From NCBI RefSeq assembly GCF_009914755.1, contig NC_060934.1: a stretch of 64,000 nucleotides of DNA. The stretch is one strand, 5' to 3'. This stretch comes from the human T2T-CHM13v2.0 reference genome, Homo sapiens. This document shows, in pieces, positions 1,517 to 12,000 of this stretch. The position numbers were made by a program, and so were the translations under genes. The first letter of the stretch is position 1. The number at the start of each line of letters is the position of its first letter. The notes under the pieces are model-generated. The model saw only the letters and a program-made list of their open reading frames with translations. It was not told the DNA's origin and ran no database searches.

Positions 1517-1583
1517 CTTTGGCATGGCATATGACTTTATTGATTCAGTGGGAAATGATGTGGATGTTGTCTCTGACTCTGAA
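1517..1583 (+). CDS. EDRF1: EDRF1 exon (presumed exon 3), FGMAYDFIDSVGNDVDVVSDSE
   Basis: ttggtag|C...GAA|gtaagt; 67 nt. Confidence 0.9.
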
Positions 1584-2259
1584 GTAAGTGTTATTTGTCG
1601 CTTAATGTAATTTTGGAGGTGTTTTGTGATAGGTGTTTTATATCATGCTGTGTTTTGCATAATATAAATGTGCAAGTCTTGAGAAATTAGTGATGAAATA
1701 AGATAAAACTTACCTGATTATTGAGTATCTTTTTTGTTGTTAAAGTATCATTGTTTACCACATTTGTATTTAAAGAGGAAGGAATAATCAATCCCCAAAC
1801 ACTGGCAGTGGTAATAATATATTGATGGTTATATTTTAATGATAGTAATTGAAACTGATAATAGTGTTTGGGATTATTCTGTATATGTTACCAGTTGAGT
1901 TACAAATGATATTTCTAGTAAAATCTATTGGATCCTTAGTGGCTTTGATCTGATATGCTAAAAGCCTGGGTCAGCATAACAGTGTGACGTATACACCCTT
2001 AACTTTAAGAAATCCTATCATGTAAAAATAAATGTTTGACTGTCACTAACATAATGTGACTCATAAAGTGTACGTGATTCTGGTTTGAAAGCTCCGTCCT
2101 CTGTGTGTTTGCATGTAGCTTTTTGTTTAAAGTTCTATTTGTATAACCTTAAGGAAATAAGGTTTATTATGCTTTAAAATGAATGAAGCTAAAATTTAAA
2201 AGATTCCAAATCACACTAAAACAGTCTTTCTAAACTATTTTTTCTCTTAATTTTTTAAG

Positions 2260-2385
2260 AACATAAAAAAACTCCTGAAAATTCCCTACAGCAAGTCGCA
2301 CGTGAGCATGGCAGTACACCGCATAGGAAGGACTCTCTTACTAGATGAGCTAGATATTCAAGAACTCTTTATGAGATCGTCTCAG
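2260..2385 (+). CDS. EDRF1: EDRF1 exon 4, NIKKLLKIPYSKSHVSMAVHRIGRTLLLDELDIQELFMRSSQ
   Basis: tttaag|AAC...CAG|gtaatg; 126 nt, phase 0/0. Confidence 0.93.
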
Positions 2386-2780
2386 GTAATGCTTTTGTGA
2401 AAAAATCCAACAAAACATTAACAGCTTAAGAGCACTAGAAATACGATTTTGTTTCAGAGAATGGCCAAAGTGGAAATGTAGTTGAGTACTTCAACAATCG
2501 AGAAATTGAAAGTTTCACTGAAGATAGAAAAGCTTGAATGAAGAAAAAAGAAGAGAATGAGAATGGTGAAGAAAATTATTTTATTGATTCCAACAGCCAG
2601 ATTCTTTTTTACAAGAAAAAAGATGAAGCCAATGAAGAAAGTTGTGAAAAAAACTGTGAAATTTAAGGGACTAGTTTAATATTTTTAAGAATCCTTTAAC
2701 GTCTCCCTTAAACAGATTCTCAGGAAACACAGCTACTGGAAAATGTGAAAAATATTAGAAGCTGTTCCTATGAATAAATA

Positions 2781-3079
2781 CAGTCATGTTCCCATAATGA
2801 CGTTTCAGTCAGCGATGGACTGCATATACCGGTGGTCCCATAAGATTATAATATACTGTATTTTTACTGTATTTGCAGTGTTCAGATACACAAATACTTC
2901 AGTCACATGTACAGATTTGTAGCCTGGGAGCAATAGGCTATACCGTATGACCTAGGTAGGGAGTAGGCTGTACCATCCAGGTTTCTATAAGTAACACTCT
3001 GCGATGTTCACACCAGGACAAAATCACCTAATGACGCGCTTCTCAGAATATATCCCCATTGTTAAATGACACATGGCTG
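2781..3079. mobile_element. Tigger3/MER7-like DNA transposon
   Basis: TA|cagtcatg...catggctg|TA termini and matching internal consensus. Confidence 0.75.
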
Positions 3080-3766
3080 TAGTTATTAGAATTAATTGAT
3101 GCTCTTTAGCCTAGATTCTCAAATTGTATGTTGGTAAGGACTGTTTTTCCCACATGTTGAGAATGGATACTTTTGAAAAACATAATAACATTGTTGCAGT
3201 TTCTCAAGAACTACCCTCCATATCTGTACTTTTCTTGGGCTGGCAAGAAATAGTTCATGGTCAGTCTTTAAAGAATATTACTACAGTGCTTTGATAAAGA
3301 AAATTAAATTATGGTGAGGTAAATGACATTTAAAATAAGTGCTTTTTTCCTTTGAAAAGACCACCGTTTAGTTCATCATGTGAGTATGAGCCTAGGCACG
3401 GGGATGTGACAGTGAACAAATCACAGGCCTTGCTCCTCAGCAGTTCATTGTTTGGGGTTATAAACACATACACAGATCATTTCAATATAGTGTGCAAAGT
3501 GGGAACTACTGCAGCTGCTAAGGAACATGTTATAGAGAAGACTCACCTCTCCCAGCCTGGCTTAGGAGGAGGAAGACGGGTTTCCTTTAGGAAACAAAAA
3601 ACAAAAGAAAGGTGGTATGAATTGACCCAGAAAGATATGTTTTTAATGAGTATGTGTTTATGAAACTATTCAAAAAATAATAGGAGCCTTTTCTGTAAGC
3701 TAGTACTAGGTAACATTGTTTCGACTATGTGTGTTGTATTAATAATATGTATCTCATGTTATCCAG

Positions 3767-3891
3767 ACTGGTGACTGGACATGGTTGAAAGAGTTTTATC
3801 AAAGACTCATTGATCAGAAGTGGCAGAGGAAGAAAAAGAGCAAAGAGCACTGGTATCAAAAGGCAATTCTTTCCAAGTTTTTATATTACAG
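3767..3891 (+). CDS. EDRF1: EDRF1 exon 5, TGDWTWLKEFYQRLIDQKWQRKKKSKEHWYQKAILSKFLYY
   Basis: atccag|ACT...AG|gtactt; 125 nt. Confidence 0.93.
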
Positions 3892-8848: not shown

Positions 8849-9309
8849 GTAAGATACAGTGTGATTTTTCTGATCTCTCAAATGCAAATTGGTACAGAGA
8901 GTTCCTCACCAAAGTCTTTACGGCCCTGAAGTACTAAGGTGCATTTTTGCCAGGGAAGATAGCTGTGAATAAACTGAATTTGAGTGTACATTTAAGTTGG
9001 TGATAACAGAATTGTAGATGTTATAGAAGTATAATTTTACAGGTAATTTGGAGGAAGTTCATAAATATATGAAAACCTGCATTTGTAGCCATAGAACTCT
9101 AATTTTAATGCCAAGCACTCATTAATAATTAACTGAAAGTGTCTACACAATGGAGGCGTTTCTTCGTTATGCAAATATCTACTCAGTACATGCAAAGTTT
9201 TAGGGAAAGGTCTTGTAAAAATTGCATATGGTGGATAGCTTATATAGCAAATTCTTATTGAGCATATTCTGTTTAGAAGACACGTATCCCCATTATAAGT
9301 GTTGGGGGA

Positions 9310-9610
9310 AGCTAGGCGTGTTGGCTTATTCCTGTAATCCCAAGCTACTCAGGAGACTGAGGCAGCAGGATCACTTGAAGCCGAGAGTTCAAGACCAACC
9401 TGGGCAACGTAGTGAGACCCTAATTGTAGAAAAACAACGCACACACTTAGTTGGGCATGGTGGTACATGTCTGTAGTCCCAGCTACTTGGGGGCTTGAAG
9501 CAGGAGGATCACTTGAGCCCAGGAGTTTGAGGCTGCAGTGAGCTATGATCGTGCCACTGCACTCCAGTATGAGTGACAGAGCAAGACCCTGTCTCAAAAA
9601 AATAAAAAAA
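9310..9610 (+). mobile_element. Alu (AluJ-like)
   Basis: Diverged dimer with A tail. Confidence 0.9.
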
Positions 9611-10229
9611 TTGAGAATTTAAACAATAAATAATTGTTGAAGGAAAACAAAGAATAAGCTTGGTTGTTATTCAGAAAGAGATAATCTAATGGGAAATAAT
9701 ATGCAGAGAGAACAGTAGGAGACAGATAAGAATTAGAAGTGTAGCACACAGAAATCTAGATCATCAGAGAAGGGGGTGAGCACTTCCATTCAGGTCTGGA
9801 GGAAAGACTTTGTGGAAGAAGGGACATCTTAACTGAGTCCTGAATGATAGCTAGTATCTCAAAAAATAAGAGCTGGATTTTAAAAGTCTAGTGTAAATAC
9901 ATGAAAGGATTGATAATAAATCCAGCTAGGGAACACAGGATTTATGTAGCAGAATAGCTGCAAGTAAGGTTGGAAAAGTCATGGTCAAATGATGGAGATC
10001 TTAAATGTTGAGCTAAGGAGTATGGACTTGGTTCAGTTGGTAATCTGGAATCAGAAGGCTTTGCATCTAGGAGGGGAAATTTGTTGTGTTAGAATATTAA
10101 TTTAGAGATAGCATATAGGACAGAAAAGGAGGACTTAGAGACAAGAAAACCAGAGGCATTGTACCATTTTGCAGATAGTGTAATGTACTTTCCACTAGAG
10201 AGGAACTATTAAGAATCAACAATGGTAAG

Positions 10230-10632
10230 AATAGATAGCATTTATTGAGTGCTTATTTTATCCAAGCACTTTGCTGAATGCTTTAAATGCTTTACCTTAT
10301 TTGATCTTCTTAGCTACCTCACATGCTGTTATTCCTATTTGATGGAAAGAGAGACTGAGGATCAAGGAGCTCAAGTGAGTTGCCCAGGGTCAACTTAGTA
10401 GTGAGTGGCGGTGCCAGTCTTTGTGCCTCTCTCTGGCTGAGGACATGCTTTGAACCGTTATATTCCAACCCAGTGATTCTTAACCTGGTTGTGCATCAGA
10501 ATCACTTGTGGTCTCTGAAAAAATGCACTTGCTTGGGCCCCCAGTGTTCTAGTATCAGTAGGATGTGTACTTCTGTCTTTTCTGAAAGTCTGCTGTATGA
10601 TTCTGGTTTGCAGTCTTGATTGAAAACCACTG
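10230..10632. mobile_element. MIR followed by MER5A-like hAT element
   Basis: MIR core at 10230-10440; cagtgattcttaacc...ttgaaaaccactg termini at about 10470-10632. Confidence 0.6.
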
Positions 10633-11852
10633 TTAGACCATCTCCCTAAATGGCAACATTTAGTGAGAGGCTGGGGTGGGAGTGGGGAGCAAGAGAAAAG
10701 AGAGAGGCAGATAAAGCGTTAGCAAGGCGGAGGGGAACAGGAGTCAAAGGAGATTCCAGGGTTTAGGGACTAGAATAATGGTGGTGCCATTTAGTGAGAT
10801 AAGGATGTTGAATTGGTTTAGACAGGGAAGGTAATATGTTTTTGTCACATGTTCAGTTTGAGGAAAGTATAAAAATGTCTAGTGAGCATTTTGAAGTTGC
10901 AGCCATTAGAGAAATAAATTGAAGCATCATCTGCCTAGATACTGTCAGATTTCATCACCAGAGGAATCTATTAAAATCAGACATTGGAGCCTCTCCTCAT
11001 AGGGGTAAAAATAGAAGGGCATTTAGAGAGAGAGAAGGAGAACAAGAATAGCACAGATTAAAATACAGGAAAGGAGCATTTTAAGGAAGGAAATAATCAA
11101 CATTGGGGACTTCACATGAACAAAGTGGGGTGAAAATCAACCTCAGACGATTGTGTTTGGTCTTACATTCCAGTTGATTTGAAGTTTCCAGTTTTAGAGT
11201 ACTTCAGAAAATGTGGTAGGAGATGGTTAGGAGAGTGTGCACAGAAGATAAACAAGAAAAATGCAAAGGCACTTTTAAAATAGTGGTAGTAATGTCCATG
11301 AAGCCTTTACTCTTATTGCCACCTCCATTCCCCCCTGCTCCATCCCTGTGAAGTAATAAAGTCCATAGATGAAGGGAAGAGAGGTGTCTACTGGAAAATT
11401 TCCTAAATGATTCTCTCTCCTTGAGTCACTGACTGTAGTTTCTAGCAAAAAAAAAGGCCAGAAATACATGTGTTTTAAAATCTTGCTGGGTAAAGCCTAC
11501 CTTCATTTACCATCTTCCCAGTTGAAAACCATTCAAGTGGAATAAAAGTAGTCAGTATGATTTGTTCCATGTTAGAACAGAAATAAGATCATGCCTGAAT
11601 CTGAGGTTCTAAATCTGGTAGTGATTCTCCATTGAAATTACTCCAATAGTGAACTGCCCTTGCTGATGGGGTGGATGAGATTCCTTTGGGAGGCTGGGGC
11701 AGAAAAAAGATTAAAAACCACTGGTTTAAACACTTTCATGCTACATAGGTCTCTGTTTGCAGGACTTCTGCATTTGGTTGCTTTTTAAAAAGAAAGGTGT
11801 TGTTTCCTTGGGTTTTCTCTTAAACTGCTTTCCATCTGTCTGTATTTTACAG

Positions 11853-12000
11853 AAATATGAAATGATAAAGACAGAAGAAATTCCCAATTTGGAAAATTCT
11901 AATTTTTCTACTAAAGTCATAAAAGACATTGCACAGAATATTTTATCATTTTTGAAATCTAATTGTACCAAAGAAGGACATACCTATTGGCTCTTTAAAG
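11853..12000 (+). CDS. EDRF1: EDRF1 exon 10, KYEMIKTEEIPN...HTYWLFK
   Basis: ttacag|AAA...G|gtaagc; 148 nt. Confidence 0.93.

What the first reader, a model, noticed from the sequence alone, without database searches (positions are those of the whole stretch)
1517..11890. EDRF1 N-terminal domain looks like a catalytically dead DXO/Rai1/eIF3d-fold RNA 5'-end/cap-binding module
Seen in the spliced translation of exons 3-10: five blocks line up in order with human DXO motifs as I recall them. (a) DVVSDSENIKKLLKIPYSKSHVSMAVHRIGRTLLLDE vs DXO DFVTWRGHLTKLLTTPY..GWQLAASRFQGTLYLSE, and eIF3d SWDIVVQRVGSKLFFD. (b) LSKFLYYS vs GYKFEQYM. (c) HMLVGSNMP vs PLLFSGEVD. (d) AVSLRL vs YVELKT. (e) IDYWLDNLICNVPELVMCFHVNGIVQKYEMIKTEEIP vs LKWWAQSFLPGVPNVVAGFRNPDGFV. 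The structural residues are kept, but the metal-binding PD-(D/E)XK acidic residues are all replaced (E>L, E/D>N/P, E>S) and the catalytic K becomes R. Established: eIF3d uses a non-catalytic DXO-like fold to bind the mRNA cap. Inference: EDRF1, usually described only as a transcriptional regulator of globin genes, may be a pseudo-nuclease that recognises RNA 5' ends or caps (m7G, NAD, 5'-ppp), coupled to a C-terminal TPR-like scaffold. The alignment is by eye, and domain databases may already note the fold.
Basis: partly seen in the sequence, partly recalled or inferred. Interest (0 to 1): 0.85.

Follow-up and report, generated by a model that had tools for sequence, protein, structure and literature searches.

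The report
EDRF1 carries a dead DXO-type domain
The front half of the human protein EDRF1 is an ancient, inactive copy of the RNA-decapping enzyme DXO/Rai1, which gives this poorly understood "globin regulator" a concrete, testable molecular identity.

Summary
All five EDRF1 strings are in the spliced translation at the stated coordinates.

The similarity is real homology:
- Pfam's RAI1 model scores EDRF1 orthologues above its curated cut-off (37.8 bits, E 1.7e-9).
- An AlphaFold model of the domain matches only Rai1/DXO/DXO1/Dxo1/eIF3d at the top of the PDB. Z is 16.1-11.2, and the next, unrelated row is 9.1.
- Profile-profile alignment beats 120 of 120 shuffles.

All six Rai1/DXO active-site motifs are replaced. 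This holds in 58 of 58 homologues for the motif I Arg, the motif II Glu, the motif III Asp and the motif IV Glu, land plants included. EDRF1 is therefore an ancient pseudo-nuclease.

It is weakened because the residues that hold RNA phosphates in DXO (motifs I, V, VI) are now S/A, T, D and H. These replacements are themselves near-invariant, so the cleft looks re-purposed rather than decayed.

Pfam-based annotation already tags most animal orthologues with RAI1. No paper found in my searches makes the link.

The parts
1517..1583 (+). Exon 3 of EDRF1. It encodes the first strand of the part of the DXO-like domain that lies in the window. The motif I equivalent is here: Ser21 of the window protein (full-length 127), codon 1578-1580, in place of the Rai1/DXO Arg.
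   Evidence: PF23788, E 1.1e-8; VVSDSEN aligned to VTWRGHL; 0 of 58 homologues basic.
2260..2385 (+). Exon 4. It encodes the helix NIKKLLKIPY and two strands (block a). It holds the near-invariant His42 (codon 2317-2319).
   Evidence: E 8.1e-24 to EDRF1_N; same strand/helix order as DXO 132-170; His in 57 of 58.
3767..3891 (+). Exon 5. It encodes helices that include block b (SKFLYYS). The motif II equivalent is Leu103 (codon 3881-3883), in place of the metal-binding Glu.
   Evidence: (Leu in 48 of 58, no acidic residue in 58).
4131..7553 (+). Exons 6 and 7 (4131-4287, 7452-7553). They encode a Ser/acidic-rich disordered insertion of about 85 residues (window aa 112-194) between the motif II helix and the next strand. 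DXO has a 19-residue linker there.
   Evidence: pLDDT under 50 for model residues 113-196; DXO H183-199 then E219.
7807..7928 (+). Exon 8. It encodes a beta-hairpin and the next strand, with the motif III and IV equivalents (blocks c, d). In the structure-aware register Asn216 stands for the motif III Glu. No acidic residue stands for the motif III Asp. Arg231 and Arg233 (alternatively Ser229 and Arg231) stand for the motif IV Glu and Lys.
8737..8848 (+). Exon 9. It encodes the helix TGIDYWLDN (motif V equivalent: Thr243 for Lys, Asp250 for Gln) and the strand VPELVMCFH (motif VI equivalent: Cys262 for Gly, His264 for Arg). This is the most conserved stretch of the family.
   Evidence: E 1.4e-22; all four residues conserved in at least 90% of 58.
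11853..12000 (+). Exon 10. It encodes strands and a helix of the second half of the fold (end of block e). It is the only exon that matches Pfam RAI1 on its own.
   Evidence: PF08652, E 0.0046, 16.7 bits, profile 256-303 of 333; PF23788, E 1.1e-29.
12084..12192 (+). Exon 11. It encodes the last two strands of the DXO-like fold, with the invariant Asp330 (codon 12113-12115). The fold ends near 12139.
   Evidence: (model 1..362 aligned to mouse DXO 103..385).
12521..14274 (+). Exon 12 and part of exon 13. They encode the helical hairpins that follow the fold and an acidic Ser-rich disordered stretch (from 14185). This is the end of Pfam EDRF1_N.
   Evidence: helices 349-409, pLDDT under 50 for 420-455; only short helical matches, Z about 8.
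21640..41922 (+). Exons encoding the C-terminal TPR-like solenoid (Pfam TPR_EDRF1). This is context rather than part of the claim.
   Evidence: the exons from 21508 to 28013 match PF23723 positions 1-256; orthologues match the profile over 1-393 of 395.

Best explanation
Shown: residues of about 107-445 of EDRF1 (window exons 3-11, plus an N-terminal piece encoded upstream of the window) are a true homologue of the Rai1/Dxo1/DXO decapping-exonuclease fold. The canonical two-metal nuclease centre is gone.

Each of the six family motifs is replaced:
- I: Arg to Ser/Ala
- II: Glu to Leu
- III: Glu-h-Asp to Asn (Asp in most species) with no acidic partner
- IV: Glu-h-Lys to Arg-Leu-Arg
- V: Lys...Gln to Thr...Asp
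- VI: Gly-h-Arg to Cys-h-His

The hydrophobic scaffold residues of the motifs are kept. The same state is found in land plants and a charophyte, so the loss predates the animal-plant split.

Inferred: the domain is a non-catalytic binding module. The half of the old cleft built by motifs V and VI is the most conserved part of the family, but it now carries T, D, C and H instead of the basic residues that hold RNA phosphates. It therefore most likely docks a protein partner, a cation or another small ligand rather than an RNA 5' phosphate in the DXO manner. It presents that partner on the C-terminal TPR scaffold.

A yeast two-hybrid hit of EDRF1 283-595 with the CNOT11 antenna domain makes an adaptor role in mRNA decay or transcription-coupled RNA handling the leading guess.
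For: Sequence:
- Pfam RAI1 (PF08652) scores mouse, muntjac-cluster and Xenopus EDRF1 at 36.6-37.9 bits against a cut-off of 26.8, E about 1e-9 (3 of 4 proteins).
- Among 34 diverse homologues, 16 match at E <= 0.01 and 11 score above the cut-off.
- In Selaginella the match covers profile 73-157, the region of blocks a/b.
- Exon 10 alone gives E 0.0046.

Structure (AlphaFold model of orthologue fragment P0050, 92.4% identical to the window protein, pLDDT about 90 in the folded parts):
- Every row listed down to Foldseek rank 50 is Rai1/DXO/DXO1/eIF3d, best E 1.3e-6.
- VIA Z is 16.1 (rmsd 3.7 A over 248 residues) to C. thermophilum Rai1, 15.6 to mouse DXO and 13.2 to eIF3d.
- In a Foldseek-independent scan of 48,161 chains the top 10 are all this family, and rank 11 drops to Z 9.1 over 62 helical residues.
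- The secondary-structure elements of an AlphaFold DXO model match one to one.

Profile-profile:
- Score 39.3 against shuffles of at most 30.7.
- Probability 94.5% with secondary structure.

Residues, n = 58:
- Motif I position: 0 basic.
- Motif II Glu position: 0 acidic.
- Motif III Asp position: 0 acidic in either register.
- Motif IV Glu position: 0 acidic in either register.
- T245 95%, D252 93%, C264 97%, H266 98%.

Other:
- Motif definitions and roles come from PMC4513879 (passages).
- The CNOT11 two-hybrid hit is in PMC9902336, section 10.
Against: - From the EDRF1 side, HMMER finds no DXO or Rai1 chain in the PDB. A single sequence gave one unrelated hit at E 0.32. A full-length profile gave only TPR and designed repeats. 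An N-domain profile of 17 fragments gave 0 hits.
- hhalign without secondary structure gives only 15-41% probability.
- 18 of the 34 diverse homologues show no RAI1 match at E <= 0.01.
- The model is of a bird orthologue, not the human protein. I had no coordinates, so the residue equivalences rest on sequence and secondary-structure alignment. The register at motifs III and IV is not settled.
- The motif III Glu position is Asp in 46 of 58 homologues, and the family keeps many other acidic residues (D248, D252, E260, D332). A non-canonical metal site is therefore not excluded.
- The CNOT11 link is a two-hybrid hit that the same paper did not recover by AP-MS.
- The nature of the ligand is pure inference.
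Confidence: 0.8

Rival explanations
1. The dead DXO-like pocket of EDRF1 still recognises RNA 5' ends or caps (m7G, NAD, 5'-ppp), as proposed for eIF3d. The TPR half couples this to partners.
For: - EDRF1 has the same fold as eIF3d's cap-binding domain (Z 11.2-13.2).
- The cleft-forming motif V/VI region is the most conserved part of EDRF1.
- There is a precedent for a non-catalytic DXO fold assigned to cap binding (PMC10165153, passages).
- EDRF1 has a two-hybrid link to the CCR4-NOT subunit CNOT11.
Against: - The residues that touch the 5' phosphate and backbone phosphates in Rai1/DXO are the motif I Arg, the motif V Lys and Gln, and the motif VI Arg. In EDRF1 they are Ser/Ala, Thr, Asp and His, conserved as such. 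That makes the cleft less basic.
- No Pfam eIF-3_zeta match at E <= 1 in 4 orthologues.
- No paper with EDRF1, RNA-binding and interactome together.
- Even for eIF3d, no cap-bound structure has been captured.
- I did not compare eIF3d's own motif residues.
Confidence: 0.15
2. EDRF1 is still an enzyme or metal-binding protein. Its centre has been rebuilt from the family-specific conserved residues (His148, Cys368, His370, Asp352, Asp356, Glu364 in full-length numbering) in place of the PD-(D/E)XK set.
For: - These residues are conserved in 54-57 of 58 homologues from animals to plants.
- Four of them sit at or next to motif V/VI positions of the old active site.
- From my own knowledge: Cys/His/Asp sets are typical metal ligands, and migration of catalytic residues is known in the PD-(D/E)XK superfamily.
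Against: - I could not test spatial clustering, because no coordinates were available.
- The central bridging Asp of motif III and the Glu residues of motifs II and IV are absent in 58 of 58.
- No biochemical report turned up in the searches.
Confidence: 0.1
3. The resemblance is convergence or an alignment artefact. EDRF1_N is unrelated to DXO/Rai1.
For: - Pairwise identity is only 10-15%.
- HMMER searches from the EDRF1 side find nothing.
Against: - The Pfam RAI1 score is above the curated cut-off.
- Z is 14-16 over about 240 residues, with a clear gap to unrelated folds.
- The order of all secondary-structure elements is the same.
- 0 of 120 shuffles reach the hhalign score.
- Language-model neighbours are RAI1, NARG2_C and eIF3d clusters. 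This is a lead only, with scores 0.77-0.83.
Confidence: 0.02

Closest known systems
Rai1 / Dxo1 / DXO decapping exonucleases (Pfam RAI1, PF08652)
   Same: - Same fold over about 240 residues (Z 13-16).
- Same order of strands and helices.
- Pfam model match above its cut-off.
- The hydrophobic scaffold residues of motifs II-VI are kept (F of motif II, h of IV, W-L of V, F/Y of VI).
   Different: - Every functional residue of the six motifs is replaced.
- EDRF1 has an 85-residue disordered insertion after the motif II helix.
- EDRF1 is fused to a TPR solenoid of about 700 residues.
- No nuclease activity is expected.
eIF3d cap-binding domain
   Same: - It is a non-catalytic protein with the DXO fold, embedded in a larger assembly (Z 11-13 to the EDRF1 model).
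   Different: - EDRF1 is structurally nearer to Rai1/DXO than to eIF3d.
- No Pfam eIF-3_zeta match.
- I did not examine whether EDRF1 has anything like eIF3d's RNA gate.
- Cap binding by EDRF1 is untested.
ICE2/NARG2 C-terminal domain (Pfam NARG2_C)
   Same: - It appears among the nearest language-model clusters (0.79, a lead only). From my own knowledge it is another DXO-like domain in a transcription-linked scaffold protein.
   Different: - No Pfam NARG2_C match at E <= 1.
- No solved structure appeared in the fold searches.
- The relationship was not otherwise tested.

Membership tests
Rai1/Dxo1/DXO (Pfam PF08652) | DXO-type alpha/beta fold | tested here: met
   Z is 16.1-13.1 to Rai1, DXO1, DXO and Dxo1, and this family holds the top 10 of 48,161 chains. 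Foldseek E is 1.3e-6.
Rai1/Dxo1/DXO (Pfam PF08652) | Pfam model score above the gathering cut-off (26.8 bits) | tested here: met
   Scores are 36.6-37.9 bits in 3 of 4 vertebrate orthologues. 11 of 34 diverse homologues are above the cut-off. The only window piece that could be scanned alone, exon 10, gives 16.7 bits.
Rai1/Dxo1/DXO (Pfam PF08652) | Motif I: Arg at the 5'-phosphate site | tested here: not met
   Ser in human. The position is A 32, S 14 and other residues, with 0 of 58 basic.
Rai1/Dxo1/DXO (Pfam PF08652) | Motif II: G-Phi-X-Phi-E (metal-binding Glu) | tested here: not met
   SKFL stands in place of YKFE. Leu in 48 of 58, 0 acidic.
Rai1/Dxo1/DXO (Pfam PF08652) | Motif III: E-h-D | tested here: not met
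   Human has Asn-Met-Pro. The Asp position is never acidic in either register (P 48/L 5, or H 33/Y 14). The Glu position is Asp in 46 of 58 in the structure-aware register.
Rai1/Dxo1/DXO (Pfam PF08652) | Motif IV: E-h-K | tested here: not met
0 of 58 acidic at the Glu position in either register.
Rai1/Dxo1/DXO (Pfam PF08652) | Motif V: K-X4-Phi-h-Q | tested here: not met
   T-X4-W-L-D. Thr 95%, Asp 93% (plus 4 Glu) of 58.
Rai1/Dxo1/DXO (Pfam PF08652) | Motif VI: G-h-R | tested here: not met
   C-F/Y-H. Cys in 56 and His in 57 of 58.
Rai1/Dxo1/DXO (Pfam PF08652) | Decapping, pyrophosphohydrolase or exonuclease activity | not testable with these tools
   Needs biochemistry.
eIF3d cap-binding domain (Pfam PF05091) | DXO-like fold | tested here: met
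   Z is 11.2-13.2 to eIF3d chains.
eIF3d cap-binding domain (Pfam PF05091) | Match to the eIF-3_zeta profile | tested here: not met
   No PF05091 row at E <= 1 for 4 orthologues.
eIF3d cap-binding domain (Pfam PF05091) | Cap cross-linking, and the RNA-gate insertion | not tested
   I made no residue-level comparison with eIF3d. Cap binding needs experiment.
PD-(D/E)XK superfamily | Catalytic D...(D/E)XK on the beta2-beta3 hairpin | tested here: not met
   See motifs III and IV.
Pfam EDRF1_N (PF23788) | Profile match | tested here: met
   11 of the 11 N-terminal exon translations scanned match, E 1e-6 to 1e-29.
ICE2/NARG2 C-terminal domain (PF10505) | Profile match | tested here: not met
   No PF10505 row at E <= 1. 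The only support is a language-model lead at 0.79.

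The most novel reading that the evidence does not exclude
The old DXO active-site cleft of EDRF1 has been rebuilt rather than merely killed. 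It would be a new site, conserved from animals to plants, made of Cys368, His370, His148, Asp352, Asp356 and Glu364 (full-length numbering). It would bind a metal or cationic ligand, or support a chemistry unrelated to nucleases. EDRF1 would then be a ligand-sensing or enzymatic adaptor that feeds into CCR4-NOT through CNOT11.
Probability: 0.12. Interest if true: 0.8.

Novelty: new member of a known kind. Interest (0 to 1): 0.55.

Why it matters
In the papers I saw, EDRF1 is described only as a nuclear factor that modulates GATA1 and globin expression, with no molecular mechanism (PMC10391676, passages).

This work shows three things:
- The conserved half of EDRF1 is a DXO/Rai1 paralogue.
- It has been inactive since before plants and animals diverged.
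- Its cleft still carries a near-invariant but chemically different residue set.

Together these turn an unannotated scaffold into a protein with a defined domain, specific point mutants to make, and a short list of ligands and partners to test.

It also adds another non-catalytic DXO-fold protein beside eIF3d, and from my own knowledge ICE2, to the human set. This suggests the fold has been recycled repeatedly as a recognition module.

The surprise is moderate. A standard Pfam scan already shows the RAI1 match, although no paper in the searched library mentions it.

Tried and rejected
**Searches from the EDRF1 side that found nothing useful**
- phmmer of the N-terminal fragment against PDB sequences gave one unrelated hit at E 0.32.
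- A full-length 58-sequence profile against the PDB gave 64 hits. The 60 shown were all TPR, helical-repeat or designed proteins.
- An N-domain-only profile of 17 fragments gave 0 hits at E <= 10.
- A second ESM Atlas call for named clusters gave no usable hit, so I could not learn the family's range in fungi or protists.
- A PF08652 scan of the human genome found only the four DXO exons at E <= 0.001, not EDRF1.
- Of the 11 N-domain exon translations, only one showed any RAI1 row at E <= 10.

**Alignment register**
- Plain hhalign puts MPIFGGG on PLLFSGE. I first took this as the better register because of the plant FSNEKH.
- Motif IV stays ambiguous.

**Literature**
- EDRF1 with DXO: 0 papers.
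- The full gene name with Rai1: 1 paper, unrelated by its title.
- EDRF1 with nuclease: 4 papers, only the CNOT11 one relevant.
- C10orf137: 15 papers, all expression or CNV lists by title.
- AT1G35660: 1 paper, unrelated by title.
- EDRF1 with RNA-binding and interactome: 0 papers.
- A six-term search listed 25 of 138 papers, and none of the listed ones holds EDRF1.

**Not available or not run**
- I ran no complex prediction, because the report does not claim a specific binding pair.

Full report
**What is in the window.** Joining the 23 annotated coding exons of EDRF1 gives a single open frame of 1132 residues with canonical splice sites. Residue 1 of this window protein equals residue 107 of full-length orthologues. 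A bonobo isoform is 100% identical over window residues 1-393.

I located the human DXO gene with Pfam RAI1 (four exon matches on G000:C6, E 5.5e-20 to 1.4e-11). Its frame translations contain every quoted DXO segment. I did not check the quoted eIF3d string.

**Sequence evidence for homology.**
- Each of the 11 N-terminal exon translations matches Pfam EDRF1_N (PF23788). Exon 10 (11853-11999) alone also matches Pfam RAI1 (PF08652) at E 0.0046, 16.7 bits, which is below the cut-off.
- On whole orthologues the RAI1 model scores 36.6-37.9 bits against a curated cut-off of 26.8 (E about 1e-9) in 3 of 4 proteins. The fourth is a predicted isoform that lacks window residues 169-269.
- Among 34 diverse homologues, 16 match at E <= 0.01 and 11 score above the cut-off.
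- The database's precomputed Pfam column already carries PF08652 for 114 of the 120 listed animal orthologues, by my count. It does so for only 1 of 120 listed plant homologues.
- Searches from the EDRF1 side were negative. These were phmmer and two HMMER profiles against PDB sequences.

**Profile-profile comparison.** I compared 58 EDRF1 homologues (A1) with 24 vertebrate DXO sequences (A2).
- The tool's hhalign gave E 0.0017 and probability 15% over 196 columns.
- A local run on the N-part gave score 39.3 and E 2.8e-4.
- As controls, the reversed DXO profile scored 18.7. Sixty column shuffles had mean 17.2 and maximum 23.6. Sixty 12-column block shuffles had mean 22.7 and maximum 30.7. None of the 120 reached the real score.
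- Adding the DSSP strings of the two AlphaFold models raised the result to probability 94.5%, E 1.2e-4, over 229 columns. That probability is calibrated for predicted secondary structure, not model-derived structure, so I treat it as indicative.

**Structure.** Spliced human sequence cannot be handed to the fold tool. I therefore folded P0050, a 501-residue N-terminal fragment from a bird that is 92.4% identical to the window protein, using the 58-sequence alignment.
- Mean pLDDT is 74 and pTM 0.71. The folded parts are near 90. Two disordered stretches cover residues 113-196 and 420-455.
- In Foldseek against the PDB, every row listed down to rank 50 is Rai1, DXO, plant DXO1 or eIF3d, with best E 1.3e-6.
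- VIA-align gives Z 16.1 (rmsd 3.7 A, 248 residues) to C. thermophilum Rai1, 15.9 to Arabidopsis DXO1, 15.6 to mouse DXO (model 1-362 on DXO 103-385), 13.1 to K. lactis Dxo1 and 13.2 to eIF3d.
- A scan of 48,161 representative chains that does not rely on Foldseek puts this family in the top 10 (Z 16.1-11.2). Rank 11 is Z 9.1 over 62 helical residues.
- An AlphaFold model of DXO itself (pLDDT 81) has the same succession of strands and helices, element by element.
- A language-model neighbour search, with EDRF1_N clusters excluded, returned RAI1, NARG2_C and eIF3d clusters at 0.77-0.83. This is only a lead.

The fold claim stands.

**The active site.** The Rai1/Dxo1/DXO family is defined by six motifs: I Arg; II G-Phi-X-Phi-E; III E-h-D; IV E-h-K; V K-X4-Phi-h-Q; VI G-h-R. 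The Glu and Asp residues of motifs II-IV bind two metal ions. The motif I Arg and motif V Gln lie at the 5' phosphate. The motif V Lys and motif VI Arg bind backbone phosphates (PMC4513879, passages).

Mapping these onto EDRF1 (window numbering; add 106 for full length) gives:
- I: Ser21
- II: Leu103
- III: Asn216, with no acidic partner
- IV: Arg231 and Arg233
- V: Thr243 ... Trp-Leu-Asp250
- VI: Cys262-Phe-His264

Across the 58 homologues:
- The motif I position is never basic.
- The motif II Glu position is never acidic (Leu in 48).
- The motif III Asp position is never acidic in either candidate register.
- The motif IV Glu position is never acidic in either register (R 42/K 8/H 5, or S 52/T 4).
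- The one exception is the motif III Glu position. In the structure-aware register it is Asp in 46, Asn in 11 (human included) and Ser in 1.

Four of the 58 are streptophytes: Riccia, Selaginella, Ceratopteris and Chara (named). They show the same losses, so the inactive state predates the animal-plant divergence.

**Register caveat.** Plain hhalign aligns MPIFGGG with PLLFSGE. The conclusion that three of the four acidic metal ligands are missing in all 58 holds under both registers.

**What the domain probably does.** The replacements are not random decay.
- Of 256 ordered positions, 36 are at least 90% conserved.
- Four of the ten motif-equivalent positions are among them: Thr, Asp, Cys and His of motifs V and VI (hypergeometric P 0.037).
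- The stretch T-G-x-D-x-W-L-D-N ... V-P-E-x-x-M-C-x-H is the most conserved in the family.

So the half of the old cleft that held the RNA in DXO is still under strong selection, but it has lost its basic residues. I infer a non-catalytic recognition module whose ligand is not an RNA 5' phosphate bound as in DXO. A protein partner, a cation or another small ligand is more likely.

The C-terminal half is a TPR-like solenoid (Pfam TPR_EDRF1), which fits an adaptor. The only mechanistic lead in print that I found is a yeast two-hybrid screen. In it, EDRF1 residues 283-595 (the second half of the fold plus the following helices and acidic tail) bound the CNOT11 antenna domain of CCR4-NOT. The same paper did not recover EDRF1 by AP-MS (PMC9902336, section 10). 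Other papers describe EDRF1 as a nuclear factor upstream of GATA1 (PMC10391676, passages).

**Comparison and novelty.** EDRF1_N works like eIF3d's cap-binding domain only in being a DXO fold without catalysis. It is structurally nearer to Rai1/DXO. It fails every motif test for the enzyme family, so it should be filed as a divergent, inactive paralogue and not as a decapping nuclease.

The fold assignment is latent in Pfam-based annotation. None of my searches found a paper linking EDRF1 to DXO, Rai1 or a nuclease fold. Supplements were not searched.

I rate it a new member of a known kind, of moderate interest. The boldest reading still open is a rebuilt Cys/His/Asp site with a function of its own.

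**Limits.**
- I had no access to model coordinates, so there is no superposition, pocket geometry or electrostatics.
- The model is of an orthologue, not the human protein.
- The first 106 residues of the protein, which should complete the fold (DXO 1-102), are encoded outside the window.
- Most distant homologues come from a library without names, so the family's range beyond animals and streptophytes is unknown.

Noticed in passing
window 7452-8848 (exons 7-9): A predicted bonobo isoform (P0033, 1126 aa) lacks window-protein residues 169-269. That removes the hairpin and motifs III-VI, and the isoform loses the Pfam RAI1 match. Isoforms that skip these exons would break the DXO-like fold.
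   Followed up: partly
window 4147-7812 (spliced; exons 6-7): A disordered Ser/acidic-rich insertion of about 85 residues sits between the motif II helix and the next strand, where DXO has 19 residues. I did not examine whether it could act as a gate over the cleft, as the insertion in eIF3d does.
   Followed up: no
window 14185-14277 (exon 13): A strongly acidic, Ser-rich disordered stretch follows the helical linker. It lies within the two-hybrid fragment 283-595 that bound CNOT11.
   Followed up: no
P0174 residues 1115-1182 (unnamed EDRF1 homologue): This homologue has a C-terminal Bromo_TP domain (PF07524, 32.5 bits against a cut-off of 24.6) fused to EDRF1. It may be a real fusion or a gene-model artefact.
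   Followed up: no
P0270 (Tetraodon DXO record, 1553 aa): This DXO record is annotated together with Roc/Ras domains (PF08477, PF00071). It is probably a merged gene model.
   Followed up: no
model residues 342-414 of P0050 (window exons 12521-12632 and 14092-14352): The helices just after the DXO-like fold match only short MIT/TPR-like three-helix units (Z about 8). This is a common arrangement and may mark the start of the TPR scaffold.
   Followed up: partly
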